A DNA stretch of 64,000 nt from Escherichia phage dw-ec: the sequence record OL739525.1; one strand, 5' to 3'. A program made the position numbers and the translations under genes. The first letter of the stretch is position 1. Every line of letters begins with the position of its first letter. Positions 35,947 to 40,649 of this stretch are shown in pieces. The notes under the pieces are model-generated. The model saw only the letters and a list, made by a program, of their open reading frames with translations. It was not told the DNA's origin and made no database searches.

Positions 35947-37320
35947 ATGGCAACTTTTCGTGAAAAGGTAGCAACCGTAACTTTACTGTATGGTGCTACA
36001 TCAATTCGTGAAACCCAGTTCGATATTCCCCTGATCCTTACAGGTCAGAACGTAACTGGCGAAGCGATTCAATATTACTCTTCTTCCGATGCACTTTTGG
36101 AAGCAGGTTATGGATTAAATGATCCAGCGTATATTATGGCAGTCAAACTGTTTAACGGTTTGTTCCCACCAGATCAAGTCATGGTTGGTAAGCGTGAAGT
36201 TACAAACTTTACTCTAACTCCAATCGTAGAAGATAGTGCAACTTACACAATTACCATCAAAAATGGTACCAAGAAAAAAGAATTTAAATTCATTGCTGAT
36301 GACACTGCAACTGCACAAGAGATTGTAGTTGGTCTGACTGAAATGATCAATGCAGATCTTGTTTATGGCCCACTGTTTACAGTAGCTAACAACGGCGCTG
36401 CAATGACTTTCACTCCAGTAGAAGGTAAGTTTGGTTCTATTGACAGCACAGGTTTCACTCAAGAAACTGTCTATGCTAATGCTATTACGGAAGATATTGC
36501 TGCTCTGCATGATATTGATAGTAGCTGGTTCTGGACCCTTTCAGATTCCCATGAAACAGAAGATGTTCTAGCTTTGGCTGCATGGGTAGAAGAGAATGAT
36601 AAAGTTTACTTCTTCTCTAGCTCTGAACCTGGAATTAAAACGAAAGCAGAAGATAACGTTCTGGAACGACTGAATGACCTCGGTTATAATAACACTTGCT
36701 TTGCTTTGTGGATGACCGATGCAGATTCTGTATTCCCAGAAGCAGCAGTTGTTGGTGCAATCTGTTCTCGTCAACCTGGTTTAACTACTCTTCACGGTAA
36801 AACACTGGTAGGTGTAGAGATCGAGAAACTGGATCAGACTTCGGAAAACAATATTGTTCAACAGAACGGCAACATCTATCGTAAAGAGCATGGAACTCTG
36901 TTCTATCGTGATGGATTGATGGTTAGCGGTTTCTTTGTTGACTATGTTGTTCATGCTTTGTGGTTTAAAGCTCGCACAGAAGAATCACTGTTTACACTGT
37001 TTAAACAACAGTCTATGCTGGGTGGTGGCGTTCGTGCTACTTCAAACGGTCTGGCTTTGATTCGACAAGCTGTTCTGGCTAACCCGATCCAAGTAGGTAT
37101 CCTCAACGGTTCCATCGCTAATGAAGTTGTTACTTCTGAAGAGACTGGTTTGCGTGTCGATCTGAAACCTATTGTTTATATTCCTTCTCGTGCTGATATG
37201 ACTGATGCGCAAATCAATGCTCGTCTGGTCGATGGGATGAAGATTGAATATGTTTACGCTGGCTTCTTCCATTACGTTAAAGTTCAGGTCAACGTCCTGA
37301 CTAACCGTACTGCAAACTAA
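35947..37320 (+). CDS. tail sheath protein
   Basis: 457 aa; precedes a small tube-sized gene, chaperone pair and tape measure; host-adapted codon usage. Confidence 0.5.
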   Translation: MATFREKVATVTLLYGATSIRETQFDIPLILTGQNVTGEAIQYYSSSDALLEAGYGLNDPAYIMAVKLFNGLFPPDQVMVGKREVTNFTLTPIVEDSATYTITIKNGTKKKEFKFIADDTATAQEIVVGLTEMINADLVYGPLFTVANNGAAMTFTPVEGKFGSIDSTGFTQETVYANAITEDIAALHDIDSSWFWTLSDSHETEDVLALAAWVEENDKVYFFSSSEPGIKTKAEDNVLERLNDLGYNNTCFALWMTDADSVFPEAAVVGAICSRQPGLTTLHGKTLVGVEIEKLDQTSENNIVQQNGNIYRKEHGTLFYRDGLMVSGFFVDYVVHALWFKARTEESLFTLFKQQSMLGGGVRATSNGLALIRQAVLANPIQVGILNGSIANEVVTSEETGLRVDLKPIVYIPSRADMTDAQINARLVDGMKIEYVYAGFFHYVKVQVNVLTNRTAN

Positions 37321-37366
37321 TACGGCGGGGGTTAAGCCCCCGTTATCAAAATAAAGAGGATCTATA

Positions 37367-37846
37367 ATGGATAAAATGCTTACTGGCGTAATGGCCTACG
37401 ACCCATCTCAAGTTATCCTTTCATTAGGTGGTTGGGAACCGTGGGGTTTTGCGGCTGATACTAAAATCGTTATTGCTAAATCTAACGATATTATCAACCC
37501 TTATTCAGGGACTGATGGTGACGTTTCACTAGCTTTGAGTCGTAACCGTTTGGGAACACTCACAATGTCTTTGCAACGCACATCTCCAGCTAACGAAGTA
37601 CTTGCAACATATGCACAAACAATGTATTCTACTCGTCAAGTAGCATTCAGCGTTTACTTGGAAGACCCACGTGGCTATTACATTAGCACGATTGGATGGA
37701 TTCAAAGTCAGCCTGAAGATACTATTGGCGAAATGATTACAGAGAACCAATGGGTTATTGGTCTTAAAGATGCAAGCCTTCTGCGTAATGAAGTTGGTGT
37801 AGGTTTGAGCACCCTTAACTCAATCTCTGCTCTGACAATTCAATAA
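37367..37846 (+). CDS. tail tube protein
   Basis: 159 aa between sheath and chaperone genes. Confidence 0.45.
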   Translation: MDKMLTGVMAYDPSQVILSLGGWEPWGFAADTKIVIAKSNDIINPYSGTDGDVSLALSRNRLGTLTMSLQRTSPANEVLATYAQTMYSTRQVAFSVYLEDPRGYYISTIGWIQSQPEDTIGEMITENQWVIGLKDASLLRNEVGVGLSTLNSISALTIQ

Positions 37847-37852
37847 TAAATA

Positions 37853-37875
37853 AAGGGCAGAAATGCCCTTTTTAT
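37853..37875 (+). terminator. intrinsic terminator after tube gene
   Basis: AAGGGCA-GAAA-TGCCCTT hairpin followed by TTTTT. Confidence 0.55.
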
Positions 37876-37891
37876 CATTAGAGAGGAAAAT

Positions 37892-38374
37892 ATGTCACAA
37901 GAACAAGATAACACAATTCAAAAATATGCTCGACCAGAAGAAGTAGTTGAGATTCCGTTAGATGGAAACAGATCTGTTACTTTCCGTATTATGAAGTGGA
38001 GTCCATCTAAAGTGTTTGACAGGATTCCAGAATTAGGTAGTGTTCTGGTTGTTCCTATGACTATGTATAGCACAGCAACAATGTCCGCAGACGAAGACCT
38101 TGAGTCACGTATTGCTATGGCACTGATCCAACTTTTTGCAGGTTTGGAAGAAAAGAATTTAACTGTCTTTTTGCGTAAAATTTTAGATGAGGTTTATACT
38201 CAAGACGGTTATAACGTTGCAGAAAATTTTGATGAATTATTTATGGCTCACCCAGAACTAGTGTTAGATCTTACTGCTAAAGTTCTGGAGGTAAACTACG
38301 GCCCTTTTTTCAAACGAGGTTTCGGAAAACTGTTCACACAGCTTCAGGCGATGACGAGTTTAGCAGCAAATTAA
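37892..38374 (+). CDS. tail assembly chaperone (short form)
   Basis: 160 aa acidic protein immediately upstream of tape measure; overlapped by a -1 frame ORF at its end. Confidence 0.5.
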   Translation: MSQEQDNTIQKYARPEEVVEIPLDGNRSVTFRIMKWSPSKVFDRIPELGSVLVVPMTMYSTATMSADEDLESRIAMALIQLFAGLEEKNLTVFLRKILDEVYTQDGYNVAENFDELFMAHPELVLDLTAKVLEVNYGPFFKRGFGKLFTQLQAMTSLAAN

Positions 38375-38640
38375 CACCTGCGATTGAACATGCTATCGAC
38401 ACAGCAACGAAAACCCTTACTTTGAAGTGGTATGAGGTTATTCTTTGCAAAGTCGTTAAAGATACCTCGGAAACACTGAAAACATTGGATAACTACGGTG
38501 TAGATTATCTTTTAAAACTATATGAGTATTTAACATACGAAGAGTATGTTGAAGCCATGTATGTTAAAGACACTTCAATAAAGAGAAAACATCAAAACCA
38601 GACAAATAAAATGTCAGATTTGTTTAAGAAACTTGTTTAA
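38281..38640 (+). CDS. -1 frame extension ORF (long-form tail assembly chaperone C-terminus)
   Basis: -1 frame open from about 38281 through track ORF 38422..38640; overlaps chaperone 3-prime end by about 94 nt; no independent RBS or ATG. Confidence 0.4.
   Translation, partial: SSGGKLRPFFQTRFRKTVHTASGDDEFSSKLTPAIEHAIDTATKTLTLKWYEVILCKVVKDTSETLKTLDNYGVDYLLKLYEYLTYEEYVEAMYVKDTSIKRKHQNQTNKMSDLFKKLV
38305..38311 (+). other. candidate -1 programmed frameshift slippery heptamer T_TTT_TTC
   Basis: X_XXY_YYZ heptamer in the chaperone zero frame (codons P-F-F) inside the overlap where the -1 frame is open. Confidence 0.4.
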
Positions 38641-38660
38641 TCCAACACGAGGAACATACT

Positions 38661-40649
38661 TTGTTAGAAATTAACGCCTCCAAAATTAGTAACGTGGTTA
38701 CGTTTAAGGTGGACAAGAACAGTCTCAAGGAAGCAAAAGATGCCGTGTTGAGTGTTCAGAAGTTTGCAAATAAAATGCAACCCACTATGAACATGACCAA
38801 GTTTAGACAACAAATGAAAGAGATTGAGCGTGAACTTAAGAAAGCTCAAACTCAAAGTCAAAAACCTATGCGAGCACCTACTCCCGCTGGAGCGGGTGCT
38901 CCTGTAGGTGGATCTGGCAGACCAAGAACTCCTAAAACCCCGCAAGGAAGAGAAGAAGAAAAAGCTCGTAAAGCGGCTGAACGCGAAGCTAAAGCAGCAG
39001 CACGTAGGGAAGACTTAGGTAATCTTCGTTTGCAAAACTTTAACTACCGAGCAAAAGCATTTAGTAAAGCCAGCCCTGGCGCTATGCAAGAAGCTAGAGA
39101 CGTTATGGGTAAAGCTGTAGAGCAATACAAAAAGGGTGAAATAACTCTTCAACGTATGAACCAAGCTCTTGCTCACCAGTTAGATGCCTTACGCAGATCT
39201 CATCGTGAAAAGAATGCTGAAATAGAAGACGAGGTTCGCGGTCGTCGCCGTATTCGTAGAGAGCTAGAAGCAGAAGCTAAAATGCGTATACGTATGCGAA
39301 ATCGTGAACTTAGAGATATAGAACGCAACCGTAAGCGTGAATTAGCTCAACAAAAACGTGATCGTGATCGTCGATATGGACAATTAAAAGAAGGTGCAGC
39401 AGGTCTTAATCCACGTATGATTGCATCCTCTTTGATAGGTGCTGGGCTGTTTGCAGGTGGTTCTGTAGTTGGTAACACGTTGATGAATACTAACGAAAGA
39501 ATTAAACTTGTAAGTCGTGGCGCTGAAAACGTTCAGACAAACGCCAACGCTATTTTGGCAATGACAGCTTGGGGTGAACAGAACGGTGTAGACTCTGCAA
39601 ATATTATTAAATCAATAGATAATATTAAAGACGTTCGTGAACGTCTTGGTAATACAGTTTTAGCCTCAAAATGGAATGAGAAAGAAGGGAAGTGGAAAGG
39701 CGGTGATAATGGCATAAATGACATTATGAACTTGTTTGGATGGAATCCAGAACAGCTTAAACCTTTACAGAACGACCCTTTAGCTTTTATTCAGGCTACT
39801 GTTAATGAAGGTGAGCGTCGAGGTATGAACTCTGCTCAAATCGGGCGACTTCTTGAAAACCTTGGTGACGACCTTATGCACTACCAGCGCATGTTTAGTA
39901 AAAACGGCGAAGGGTATAATGAGGTATTGAAAATGCTTCAAAGAACAGGTGCAACATTAACTCAAGAACAAATAGATGCTTCTAAAGAGTTTACTCGTTT
40001 TGCTGCAACAGTTCAGCTTGTAGGTCAAGGTATGCAGAACCATTTCTTAGAGGGTTTTGTGAAAGCCTTACCTAAAGATGATTCTTGGTTGGATAACGTT
40101 AAAGTGCTAGATCAGTTTGCCAAAGATTTAGGTGAAGAACTTGGTAAAACAACAGTTCAACTTGGTGGTTTTGCTAAAGAATTGGGAGATGGTTTCGGAT
40201 CTTTTACCAATTGGCTTAAAGAAACATTCCCAGATACCTTCGGAGACAACACAGATCCTAATAAATCTATGGCACAAAAAGCATACGAGGCAACGCAAAG
40301 TGGAGACAGTAACCCTGTAGCAGATTGGTTGTACAATTTAACAGGTATTGATACACAAGATATTGGTCGTATGTGGAGAGGAGAACAAACAAGGACACGT
40401 GCTTTTGGATTTGGTAATCCTCTTGAAGATTTACGTGAATCAGCCTATACACCTAACGTAAGTTTGGCTCGTAATCAACCTGTTGTTGAGAATACGGTAG
40501 CAATACCAAGTGATCTTATCAAAGTTACGATCAGCCCTTCTTCCGAGTTTGGAAATATTCTTGATGCAAGAATTCAAAATAGCGGAAATAGCATTTTCCA
40601 ACGTTTGTCTCTTTCAACTCTAAGTGGACAATCTAACACTGGTGGTTAA
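38661..40649 (+). CDS. tail tape measure protein
   Basis: 662 aa; long Arg/Glu/Ala-rich coiled-coil segments and Gly-rich hydrophobic stretch; position after chaperone pair. Confidence 0.7.
   Translation: MLEINASKISNVVTFKVDKNSLKEAKDAVLSVQKFANKMQPTMNMTKFRQQMKEIERELKKAQTQSQKPMRAPTPAGAGAPVGGSGRPRTPKTPQGREEEKARKAAEREAKAAARREDLGNLRLQNFNYRAKAFSKASPGAMQEARDVMGKAVEQYKKGEITLQRMNQALAHQLDALRRSHREKNAEIEDEVRGRRRIRRELEAEAKMRIRMRNRELRDIERNRKRELAQQKRDRDRRYGQLKEGAAGLNPRMIASSLIGAGLFAGGSVVGNTLMNTNERIKLVSRGAENVQTNANAILAMTAWGEQNGVDSANIIKSIDNIKDVRERLGNTVLASKWNEKEGKWKGGDNGINDIMNLFGWNPEQLKPLQNDPLAFIQATVNEGERRGMNSAQIGRLLENLGDDLMHYQRMFSKNGEGYNEVLKMLQRTGATLTQEQIDASKEFTRFAATVQLVGQGMQNHFLEGFVKALPKDDSWLDNVKVLDQFAKDLGEELGKTTVQLGGFAKELGDGFGSFTNWLKETFPDTFGDNTDPNKSMAQKAYEATQSGDSNPVADWLYNLTGIDTQDIGRMWRGEQTRTRAFGFGNPLEDLRESAYTPNVSLARNQPVVENTVAIPSDLIKVTISPSSEFGNILDARIQNSGNSIFQRLSLSTLSGQSNTGG

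What the first reader, a model, noticed from the sequence alone, without database searches (positions are those of the whole stretch)
37892..38640. Tail assembly chaperone with candidate -1 programmed frameshift
The -1 frame is open from about 38281 to 38640 and overlaps the last about 94 nt of the chaperone gene (ends 38374). The downstream track ORF 38422..38640 has no ATG and no RBS. A T_TTT_TTC heptamer in the chaperone frame (codons P-F-F, about 38305-38311) lies at the start of the overlap. This is the lambda G/GT-type arrangement, placed between tube and tape measure genes, and would yield a chaperone with an extra C-terminal domain of about 110 aa.
Basis: partly seen in the sequence, partly recalled or inferred. 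Interest (0 to 1): 0.5.

Follow-up and report, generated by a model that had tools for sequence, protein, structure and literature searches.

The report
Unannotated tail-chaperone frameshift in phAPEC8-like phage
This E. coli phage almost certainly makes a long form of its tail assembly chaperone by a programmed -1 ribosomal slip, the same trick known from phages lambda and P2, and public genome records for this phage group simply fail to annotate it.

Summary
The window is a phAPEC8-like Phapecoctavirus with the gene order sheath, tube, tail assembly chaperone (TAC, 37892-38374, Pfam PF21822), tape measure. The -1 frame is open from 38281 to 38640. T_TTT_TTC lies in the zero frame at 38305-38311. 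The annotated 72-aa ORF (TTG at 38422) has no Shine-Dalgarno (SD) sequence.

Comparative evidence is strong:
- All 8 relatives from Stephanstirmvirinae, all 8 from Vequintavirinae and all 18 metagenomic viral contigs keep CCT/TGT-TTT-TTC, unchanged even at synonymous sites.
- All keep the -1 frame stop-free for 80-92 codons past the TAC stop.
- None shares a conserved start codon in the -1 ORF.
- The substitution pattern switches to the -1 frame from about 38372, upstream of the annotated start.

The predicted product is join(37892..38311, 38311..38640), 249 aa, against 160 aa for the short form. No conserved downstream RNA structure was found. An SD-like GGAGG/GAGG 13 nt upstream is fixed at a synonymous site in this subfamily and may stimulate the slip.

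This is a new member of the lambda G/GT and P2 E/E+E' kind. It is not annotated in any record examined and has not been shown experimentally. Interest is low to moderate.

The parts
35947..37320 (+). Tail sheath gene (context)
   Evidence: PHROG 205 tail sheath, E 2.9e-100. Pfam DUF3383.
37367..37846 (+). Tail tube gene (context)
   Evidence: PHROG 280. Annotated as potential tail tube or DUF3277 in relatives.
37892..38374 (+). Short chaperone form (TAC-N), the zero-frame product of 160 aa
38287..38291 (+). SD-like GGAGG, 13 nt 5' of the heptamer; a candidate upstream stimulator
   Evidence: The duplex with the anti-SD sequence is -10.7 kcal/mol. The Glu codon here is GAG in 14 of 14 unique Stephanstirmvirinae-like sequences, whereas GAA dominates at other Glu positions and makes up 74% of Glu codons in the 12 structural genes counted. 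The element meets the criterion of Sharma et al. 2014, an SD-like sequence 6-17 nt before base 2 of the motif.
38302..38311 (+). Slippery run C_CCT_TTT_TTC; the core heptamer T_TTT_TTC is 38305-38311
   Evidence: Its zero-frame phase was verified. CCT/TGT-TTT-TTC is invariant in 22 of 22 unique relatives, while a control invariant Phe codon 65 nt upstream is a mix of TTT and TTC.
38311..38640 (+). -1-frame segment of the long chaperone form (TAC-NC): 109 codons plus a stop. The full product is join(37892..38311, 38311..38640), 249 aa
   Evidence: Translation is. The most variable codon position switches to position 3 of the -1 frame from about 38372. The domain is conserved across two subfamilies. 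It matches PHROG 16039 and 10409.
38318..38325 (+). Invariant GGTTTCGG, coding in both frames (G-F-G in frame 0, R-F-R in frame -1)
   Evidence: In rV5, a TTC-to-TTA change is nonsynonymous in frame 0 but synonymous (CGG to AGG) in frame -1.
38422..38640 (+). ORF annotated as a 72-aa 'hypothetical protein' in GenBank records; here read as a fragment of the TAC-NC C-terminal domain
   Evidence: It has a TTG start without an SD sequence. Gene callers give its homologues 64-85 aa with arbitrary starts.
38661..40649 (+). Tape measure protein gene (context)
   Evidence: PHROG 16051 at 1248 bits.

Best explanation
Gene 37892-38374 encodes the phage's tail assembly chaperone. Most ribosomes terminate at TAA 38372-38374 and produce the 160-aa short form (TAC-N). 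A minority slip back one nucleotide on U_UUU_UUC (38305-38311), with tRNA-Phe in both the P and A sites. They may also slip on the overlapping C_CCU_UUU, which gives the same peptide. These ribosomes then read CAA ACG AGG... in the -1 frame to TAA 38638-38640. The result is a 249-aa long form (TAC-NC) with junction ...VLEVNYGPFF|QTRFRK....

By analogy with lambda gpG/gpGT and P2 gpE/gpE+E', the shared N-terminal domain should coat the tape measure protein encoded just downstream. The extra helical C-terminal domain should recruit the tube protein, and the fixed slip rate should set the ratio of the two forms. That functional part is inferred, not shown.

The slip is probably helped by pairing of the conserved SD-like GGAGG/GAGG, 13 nt upstream, with 16S rRNA in the elongating ribosome, as in dnaX and IS911, and not by a downstream RNA structure. 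This is also inferred.
For: The locus anatomy is verified.

- **Heptamer conservation.** T_TTT_TTC sits in the zero frame inside the overlap in 8 of 8 Stephanstirmvirinae relatives, 8 of 8 Vequintavirinae relatives (about 30-35% protein identity) and 18 of 18 IMG/VR contigs.
- **Open -1 frame.** It runs 80-92 codons beyond the chaperone stop in all of them. It carries stops just upstream of the heptamer in most sequences.
- **Synonymous sites.** The three heptamer codons are invariant in 22 of 22 unique sequences. A control Phe codon is mixed.
- **Local conservation.** Zero-frame third-position diversity falls from about 0.5 to 0.08-0.13 at the site.
- **Frame switch.** Substitution periodicity moves to the -1 frame from about 38372. 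This includes 38375-38421, which lies upstream of any start codon.
- **No independent start.** No conserved start or SD exists in the -1 ORF. The first candidate start lies 12 to 144 nt after the chaperone stop in 13 of the 16 relatives that carry this heptamer. Hena1 (ATG) and CR9 (TTG) also have one just upstream of the heptamer.
- **C-terminal domain.** It is homologous across both subfamilies, and its conserved segment starts upstream of the annotated TTG.
- **Domain boundary.** The AF2 model of TAC-N loses confidence exactly after the slip site, at residue 141 onward.
- **Motif efficiency.** U_UU.C is the second most efficient tetramer in E. coli, and all-pyrimidine heptamers are favoured (PMC4066793).
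- **Precedent.** P2 has the same gene order and an annotated -1 shift at T_TTT_TTG.
Against: There is no experimental evidence for the fusion protein in this phage group. None of the records inspected annotates a joined CDS.

No conserved downstream stem-loop or pseudoknot was found. RNAalifold gave -1.8 and -0.3 kcal/mol, and the single-sequence z-score was -0.76. No Rfam element matched.

No naturally fused single-ORF homologue turned up in a search of 5.8 billion proteins.

The AF2 model of the C-terminal domain has low confidence (pLDDT 65). That domain has no Pfam or PDB relative, including no match to lambda's T family.

The heptamer codes for a conserved P/C-F-F motif. Protein-level constraint therefore explains part of the conservation, though not the synonymous-site part.
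Confidence: 0.85

Rival explanations
1. The downstream ORF is translated on its own. Translation would start at the TTG at 38422, at a near-cognate codon, or by reinitiation after the chaperone stop. It would give a separate protein of about 72-85 aa that works alongside the chaperone.
For: GenBank and RefSeq records annotate it this way. Gene callers in public databases-85-aa products. Some relatives have an ATG 21-42 nt after the chaperone stop.
Against: No SD core precedes any candidate start, and candidate start positions are not conserved. The window has no ATG, GTG or TTG in the -1 frame before 38422. Even so, 38375-38421 shows -1-frame coding periodicity and a conserved helix (PAIEHAIDTATK). 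The -1 frame is stop-free back to the heptamer in all 34 relatives, and only that far. The R-F-R motif immediately after the heptamer is conserved in the -1 frame.
Confidence: 0.05
2. The long form is made by transcriptional slippage. RNA polymerase would add one U (or drop two) on the T6 run, and standard translation of the edited mRNA would give the same fusion protein.
For: The site is a homopolymeric T6 run. A non-ribosomal mechanism has been proposed for the chaperones of T4-like phages (Vladimirov et al. 2022, cited in PMC12846349). The protein product would be identical.
Against: From my own knowledge (Baranov et al. 2005), efficient slippage by bacterial RNA polymerase generally needs runs of 8-9 or more. 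The run here is exactly six T in all 34 relatives, and it is never lengthened although TTT would be a synonymous choice for the second Phe. The run is held in the X_XXY_YYZ phase. The distant Vibrio phage S4-7 relative carries A_AAT_TTT, a tandem-slip heptamer with no long homopolymer. A conserved SD-like element at a stimulatory distance suits a ribosomal mechanism.
Confidence: 0.06
3. The open -1 frame and the heptamer are incidental, and no long form is made.
For: No experimental detection exists.
Against: Chance gives P of about 2e-6 for the open frame. The frame is retained across two subfamilies with -1-frame purifying selection.
Confidence: 0.01

Closest known systems
Phage lambda gpG/gpGT tail assembly chaperone frameshift (Levin et al. 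1993; Xu et al. 2004, 2013, 2014; summarised in PMC5009743)
   Same: Two overlapping ORFs lie between the major tail gene and the tape measure gene. [quoted passage not shown] The downstream ORF has no start of its own. To my knowledge, lambda does not need a downstream structure either.
   Different: Lambda is a siphovirus and uses G_GGA_AAG. No sequence similarity to lambda G or T was detectable: there is no Pfam T-family hit, and the chaperone here belongs to Pfam Phage_TAC_15. The SD-like element upstream is not a known feature of lambda.
Phage P2 gpE/gpE+E' (annotated in NC_001895)
   Same: P2 is a myovirus with the same gene order: sheath (FI), tube (FII), chaperone with a -1 frameshift, tape measure (T). 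Its slippery site is T_TTT_TTG, also a T6 run in the same phase.
   Different: The P2 proteins are much smaller (E is 91 aa and E+E' is 142 aa, against 160 and 249 aa here). The last base of the heptamer is G, not C. No sequence homology to P2 was tested or found.
Proposed conserved -1 frameshift with a GTTTTT motif in the chaperone genes of Vandenendeviridae (Pakpunavirus) and Andersonviridae (PMC12846349, December 2025)
   Same: That paper names Vequintavirinae as a clade related to these myovirus families. It uses the same argument: a stop-free -1 frame across the 'hypothetical protein' gap and a conserved poly-T motif at the 3' end of the short-form gene. Vequintavirinae sequences here read TG TTT TTT C, which contains GTTTTT.
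   Different: In the passages read, that paper's frameshift analysis covers only Vandenendeviridae and Andersonviridae, not Stephanstirmvirinae or Vequintavirinae. In Stephanstirmvirinae the preceding codon is CCT, not TGT. That creates an additional C_CCT_TTT heptamer.
E. coli dnaX and IS911 -1 frameshift signals with an upstream SD-like stimulator (Larsen et al. 1994; PMC4066793)
   Same: An SD-like sequence (GGAGG/GAGG) lies within the experimentally stimulatory window of 6-17 nt upstream of the motif.
   Different: dnaX and IS911 also have a downstream stem-loop, and none is conserved here. The stimulatory role here is inferred only from conservation at a synonymous site.

Membership tests
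G/GT-type tail assembly chaperone with programmed -1 frameshift (Xu, Hendrix and Duda 2004) | A pair of overlapping ORFs located between the major tail or tube gene and the tape measure gene | tested here: met
   The order is tube 37367-37846, chaperone 37892-38374, -1 ORF to 38640, tape measure from 38661.
G/GT-type tail assembly chaperone with programmed -1 frameshift (Xu, Hendrix and Duda 2004) | The upstream ORF is a tail assembly chaperone | tested here: met
G/GT-type tail assembly chaperone with programmed -1 frameshift (Xu, Hendrix and Duda 2004) | The downstream ORF is in the -1 frame, overlaps the 3' end of the chaperone gene, and lacks its own start codon and ribosome binding site | tested here: met
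   The overlap is 94 nt. There is no ATG, GTG or TTG before 38422 and no SD core. No start is conserved in 16 relatives.
G/GT-type tail assembly chaperone with programmed -1 frameshift (Xu, Hendrix and Duda 2004) | A canonical X_XXY_YYZ slippery heptamer in the zero frame within the overlap | tested here: met
   T_TTT_TTC at 38305-38311, plus C_CCT_TTT at 38302-38308.
G/GT-type tail assembly chaperone with programmed -1 frameshift (Xu, Hendrix and Duda 2004) | The arrangement is conserved in diverged relatives, with coding constraint in the -1 frame downstream of the site | tested here: met
   34 of 34 relatives keep it. The synonymous sites are fixed. The substitution periodicity switches frame. 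The C-terminal domain is conserved.
G/GT-type tail assembly chaperone with programmed -1 frameshift (Xu, Hendrix and Duda 2004) | The fusion protein is actually made, at a low fixed ratio to the short form | not testable with these tools
   This needs mass spectrometry, western blotting or a reporter assay. No report was found in the literature held.
G/GT-type tail assembly chaperone with programmed -1 frameshift (Xu, Hendrix and Duda 2004) | Both forms are required for tail assembly and absent from virions; the N-terminal domain binds the tape measure and the C-terminal domain binds the tube protein | not testable with these tools
   Inferred only by analogy (PMC5009743).
Lambda gpT sequence family (Pfam minor tail protein T) | Sequence similarity of the -1-frame domain to gpT | tested here: not met
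   The Pfam scan of the -1 product gave only a sub-threshold dodecin hit. The PDB profile search found nothing. The domain works like T but does not belong to that sequence family.
SD-stimulated bacterial -1 frameshift signals (dnaX and IS911 type) | [quoted passage not shown] | tested here: met
   GGAGG lies at 38287-38291, 14 nt before base 2 of the motif. GAGG or GGAG is present in all 14 unique Stephanstirmvirinae-like sequences but is less conserved in Vequintavirinae.
SD-stimulated bacterial -1 frameshift signals (dnaX and IS911 type) | A downstream stem-loop stimulator | tested here: not met
   There is no consensus structure and no covariation. The z-score is -0.76.

The most novel reading that the evidence does not exclude
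The frameshift signal may not be a bare heptamer. It may be a conserved element of about 50 nt (roughly 38283-38333) that has no downstream structure. In that case the internal SD-like GAGG(U)G, held 13 nt upstream and fixed at a synonymous site across the subfamily, would be the main stimulator. The invariant GGUUUCGG 7 nt downstream might contribute as well. That would be a dnaX-like, rRNA-pairing-driven chaperone frameshift shared by a large group of enterobacterial myoviruses. A less likely alternative is that the long form arises by a non-ribosomal route, as proposed for T4-like phages.
Probability: 0.35. Interest if true: 0.35.

Novelty: new member of a known kind. Interest (0 to 1): 0.25.

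Why it matters
The main value is for annotation. More than 100 deposited genomes of phAPEC8-, phi92- and rV5-like phages, many of them candidates for phage therapy, list this locus in one of two ways. Some give a chaperone plus an orphan 'hypothetical protein' with an arbitrary start. Others give a chaperone followed by a 290-nt gap. The correct annotation is one joined CDS.

The finding also extends the conserved T-run frameshift signal reported for Vandenendeviridae and Andersonviridae to Stephanstirmvirinae and Vequintavirinae. That supports an ancient, shared decoding feature in this large group of myoviruses.

Finally, it offers a clean natural case for testing SD-stimulated -1 frameshifting without a downstream structure. 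It does not change what is known about tail assembly.

Tried and rejected
- **Downstream stimulatory structure.** RNAalifold on 8 Stephanstirmvirinae and 8 Vequintavirinae sequences gave -1.8 and -0.3 kcal/mol with essentially no covariation. Single-sequence folding was no better than shuffled sequence. No Rfam match reached threshold. Rejected.
- **Naturally fused homologue.** A search of 5.8 billion proteins with the 249-aa fusion returned only short forms of about 160 aa. No 'Rosetta stone' exists in that collection.
- **Structure of the C-terminal domain.** The AF2 model reached only pLDDT 65 and is all-helical. That is too weak for a fold search, so none was run on it.
- **PDB and NCBIfam sequence searches.** Neither part gave a real hit.
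- **Mixed alignment for a fusion model.** MAFFT misplaced the C-terminal halves of the short forms, so no fusion model was attempted.
- **Literature.** I found no report of this frameshift for phAPEC8, phi92 or rV5. The Vladimirov et al. 2022 paper on T4-like phages is not held.
- **-2 shift.** The +1 frame closes within about 14 codons of the site (read from the sequence), so this was not pursued.
- **First per-codon table.** It was computed in the wrong phase. It was kept only as evidence that the -1 frame carries stops upstream of the heptamer, and was redone correctly.

Full report
**Identity of the window.** The region 37300-38700 is 99.6-99.9% identical to many Escherichia phages of the genus Phapecoctavirus (phAPEC8, ESCO5, ESCO13 and others; subfamily Stephanstirmvirinae). 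A second tier of records at 72-75% nucleotide identity includes phi92 (Justusliebigvirus) and Klebsiella phages. The local gene order is:
- sheath, 35947-37320 (PHROG 205, Pfam DUF3383);
- tube, 37367-37846;
- tail assembly chaperone, 37892-38374 (PHROG 3840 at E 2.8e-55; Pfam PF21822 Phage_TAC_15 at 84 bits against a cut-off of 22);
- a short ORF;
- tape measure protein, 38661-40649 (PHROG 16051).

**Checking the observation.**
- The chaperone frame reads ...AAC TAC GGC CCT TTT TTC AAA CGA... This places T_TTT_TTC at 38305-38311 in the X_XXY_YYZ phase. An overlapping C_CCT_TTT lies at 38302-38308.
- The -1 frame is open from 38281 to 38640, overlapping the chaperone gene by 94 nt.
- The window has no ATG, GTG or TTG in that frame before the TTG at 38422. 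No SD core precedes any candidate start.
- A slip on the heptamer gives join(37892..38311, 38311..38640). That is 140 aa from frame 0 plus 109 aa from frame -1, or 249 aa, with junction VLEVNYGPFF|QTRFRK. The short form is 160 aa.
- A slip on either overlapping heptamer gives the same peptide.
- Stops make up 10.3% of -1-frame codons in the long ORFs here, so 119 open codons have P of about 2e-6. In-frame heptamers occur at 0.4% of codon positions. Every other long -1 overlap in the window is an ordinary neighbouring gene overlapping by 43 nt at most.

**Comparative evidence.** I took the locus from several sets of relatives.
- Seven are more distant Stephanstirmvirinae or close relatives: phi92, PsgM04F, phiWec181, KP2025, phi1_175008, 05F01 and KP13-16.
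- Eight are Vequintavirinae: rV5, SSE121, Hena1, CR9, KB57, CB7, 18-1-2 and UPEC06. Their chaperones are only about 30-35% identical to this one.
- Eighteen are IMG/VR viral contigs, down to 32% identity.

All of them have T_TTT_TTC in the zero frame inside the overlap, and all keep the -1 frame open for 80-92 codons past the chaperone stop. Upstream of the heptamer the -1 frame carries stops in most sequences, within 4-8 codons of the site.

The IMG/VR loci were retrieved with a peptide pattern that includes P-F-F. Their amino-acid motif is therefore partly ascertained, but their codon choice is not.

Codon choice is the sharper test. Among 14 unique Stephanstirmvirinae-like and 8 Vequintavirinae sequences, the three heptamer codons are CCT (or TGT), TTT and TTC in 22 of 22. 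An equally invariant Phe 65 nt upstream is split between TTT and TTC, 8:6 and 2:6.

In a sliding window over eight Stephanstirmvirinae sequences, zero-frame third-position diversity is about 0.5 through the chaperone body. It falls to 0.08-0.13 around 38300-38312 and then recovers. From about 38372 onward the most variable position becomes the third position of the -1 frame, at 0.5-0.6. That switch includes 38375-38421, which GenBank leaves non-coding and which has no start codon.

The fusion proteins align well across both subfamilies and a Vibrio phage. They share a conserved R-F-R directly after the slip, a G/S-rich linker of variable length, and a conserved C-terminal domain. That domain begins (PAIEHAIDTATK...W-Y) upstream of the annotated TTG. 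In rV5, a TTC-to-TTA change in the conserved GGTTTCGG changes Phe to Leu in frame 0 but is silent (CGG to AGG) in frame -1.

**How public data treat the locus.** Records annotate the downstream piece in one of three ways:
- as a separate 'hypothetical protein' with differing starts (TTG, ATG, and in rV5 a CTG placed immediately before the T-run);
- not at all;
- never, in the records examined, as a joined CDS.

In the 5.8-billion-protein collection, the short form appears as proteins of 158-175 aa. The C-terminal domain appears only as fragments of 64-85 aa covering 56-76% of the 109-aa segment. No single-ORF fusion exists there.

**Stimulatory elements.** I found no conserved structure downstream. 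RNAalifold consensus energies were -1.8 and -0.3 kcal/mol without meaningful covariation. The single-sequence z-score was -0.76, and no Rfam family matched.

Upstream there is an SD-like GGAGG at 38287-38291, 13 nt before the heptamer. Its predicted duplex with the 16S 3' end is -10.7 kcal/mol. Most relatives have GAGGTGA at the same place.

The Glu codon inside this element is GAG in 14 of 14 unique Stephanstirmvirinae-like sequences. Other Glu codons in the same gene are mostly GAA, and GAA makes up 74% of Glu codons in the 12 structural genes counted in this window. In Vequintavirinae the element is less regular (GAG 4, GAA 2, other 2).

The position meets the criterion of Sharma et al. 2014 for experimentally stimulatory SD-like sequences, 6-17 nt before base 2 of the motif. 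The same paper ranks U_UU.C as the second most efficient A-site tetramer in E. coli, and finds all-pyrimidine heptamers favoured. That the SD-like element stimulates the shift here is an inference.

**Structure.**
- An AF2 model of the short form has pLDDT 72 and pTM 0.64. It shows a beta-hairpin followed by helices, and confidence collapses after residue 141, directly after the slip site at residue 140.
- Foldseek found nothing significant.
- The C-terminal domain model is weak (pLDDT 65, all-helical).

**Mechanism.** The best-supported explanation is a programmed -1 ribosomal frameshift of the lambda G/GT type. Most ribosomes make the 160-aa chaperone. A minority slip on U_UUU_UUC and make the 249-aa long form. 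I put this at about 0.85.

What is shown:
- the anatomy of the locus;
- the chaperone identity of the upstream ORF;
- conservation of the signal down to synonymous sites;
- coding constraint in the -1 frame from the chaperone stop onward, with no start codon;
- the absence of stops in that frame back to the heptamer.

What is inferred:
- that the protein is actually made, and in what proportion;
- that the SD-like element stimulates the shift;
- that the N-terminal domain binds the tape measure and the C-terminal domain binds the tube protein, as in lambda (PMC5009743).

**Rivals.**
- **Independent initiation (about 0.05).** It fails to explain the coding signal and the conserved residues upstream of every candidate start.
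- **Transcriptional slippage on the T6 run (about 0.06).** It cannot be excluded from sequence alone, but several points argue against it. The run is exactly six T in every relative and is held in heptamer phase. The Vibrio phage S4-7 relative carries A_AAT_TTT instead. To my knowledge, bacterial RNA polymerase needs longer runs to slip efficiently.
- **No long form at all (about 0.01).**

**Comparison with what is known.** The arrangement matches the defining features of the chaperone frameshift family described by Xu et al. 2004.

The closest myovirus precedent is P2. Its RefSeq record shows FI (sheath), FII (tube), E and E+E' with a -1 shift, then T (tape measure). I read the site there as T_TTT_TTG in the same phase.

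A December 2025 paper proposes the same kind of frameshift, with a conserved GTTTTT motif, for Vandenendeviridae and Andersonviridae. It notes the relatedness of those families to Vequintavirinae (PMC12846349). In the passages I read, its frameshift analysis does not cover Stephanstirmvirinae or Vequintavirinae.

The -1-frame domain has no detectable sequence relation to lambda gpT. It therefore works like T without belonging to that sequence family.

**Verdict.** This is a new, unannotated member of a well-known kind. Its value lies mainly in correcting the annotation of a large group of therapeutically relevant coliphages. A secondary value is a possible example of SD-stimulated, structure-free -1 frameshifting. 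Interest is 0.25.

Noticed in passing
window 37852-37871 (+): A terminator-like hairpin (AAAGGGCA-GAAA-TGCCCTTT followed by a T-rich tail) sits between the tube gene and the chaperone gene. The phAPEC8 record annotates it as a putative terminator. It could lower expression of the chaperone and tape measure relative to the sheath and tube.
   Followed up: partly
window 38661: The tape measure gene starts with TTG, preceded by GAGGA about 8 nt upstream. It lies only 20 nt after the -1-frame stop at 38638-38640.
   Followed up: no
GenBank records MG065650 and others, OP562383, OR584014: Records named Campylobacter phage and Acinetobacter phage are 99.6-99.7% identical to this E. coli phage over the locus. 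A record named Pseudomonas phage (PsgM04F) is 73% identical over the locus, like the E. coli phages phiWec190 and phiWec181. The host labels look doubtful and may reflect contamination or mislabelling.
   Followed up: no
L009 (rV5, NC_011041) 1851-2219: rV5 gp050 is annotated as starting at a CTG codon placed immediately 5' of the T-run. The annotators evidently saw the long ORF but had no canonical start for it.
   Followed up: partly
L015 (Vibrio phage S4-7) 1800-1806: This distant relative has A_AAT_TTT in the zero frame in place of T_TTT_TTC, 2-3 codons upstream in the alignment. It also has an ATG 18 nt downstream in the -1 frame. It may represent an alternative slippery site in the same family.
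   Followed up: partly
L009-L017 (Vequintavirinae), the region between the slip site and the C-terminal domain: The -1-frame linker is about 20-25 aa longer and rich in G, S, T and P in Vequintavirinae, yet it stays stop-free. Linker length is the main difference between the two subfamilies' long forms.
   Followed up: no
L014 (Pectobacterium phage CB7) 2300-3370: Two extra annotated ORFs (CB7_21 and CB7_22) lie between the -1 ORF and the annotated tape measure. In CR9 the tape measure is annotated from the equivalent of the CB7_22 start. The tape measure may be split or mis-annotated in CB7.
   Followed up: no
L002 (phi92, FR775895) 159-251: The phi92 record carries a 'hypothetical tRNA' feature inside the sheath gene. 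It is probably a spurious annotation.
   Followed up: no
window 38318-38325 and the equivalent positions in all relatives: GGTTTCGG, 7 nt 3' of the heptamer, is almost invariant across both subfamilies. Coding in both frames (G-F-G and R-F-R) may explain this, but an RNA-level role was not excluded.
   Followed up: partly
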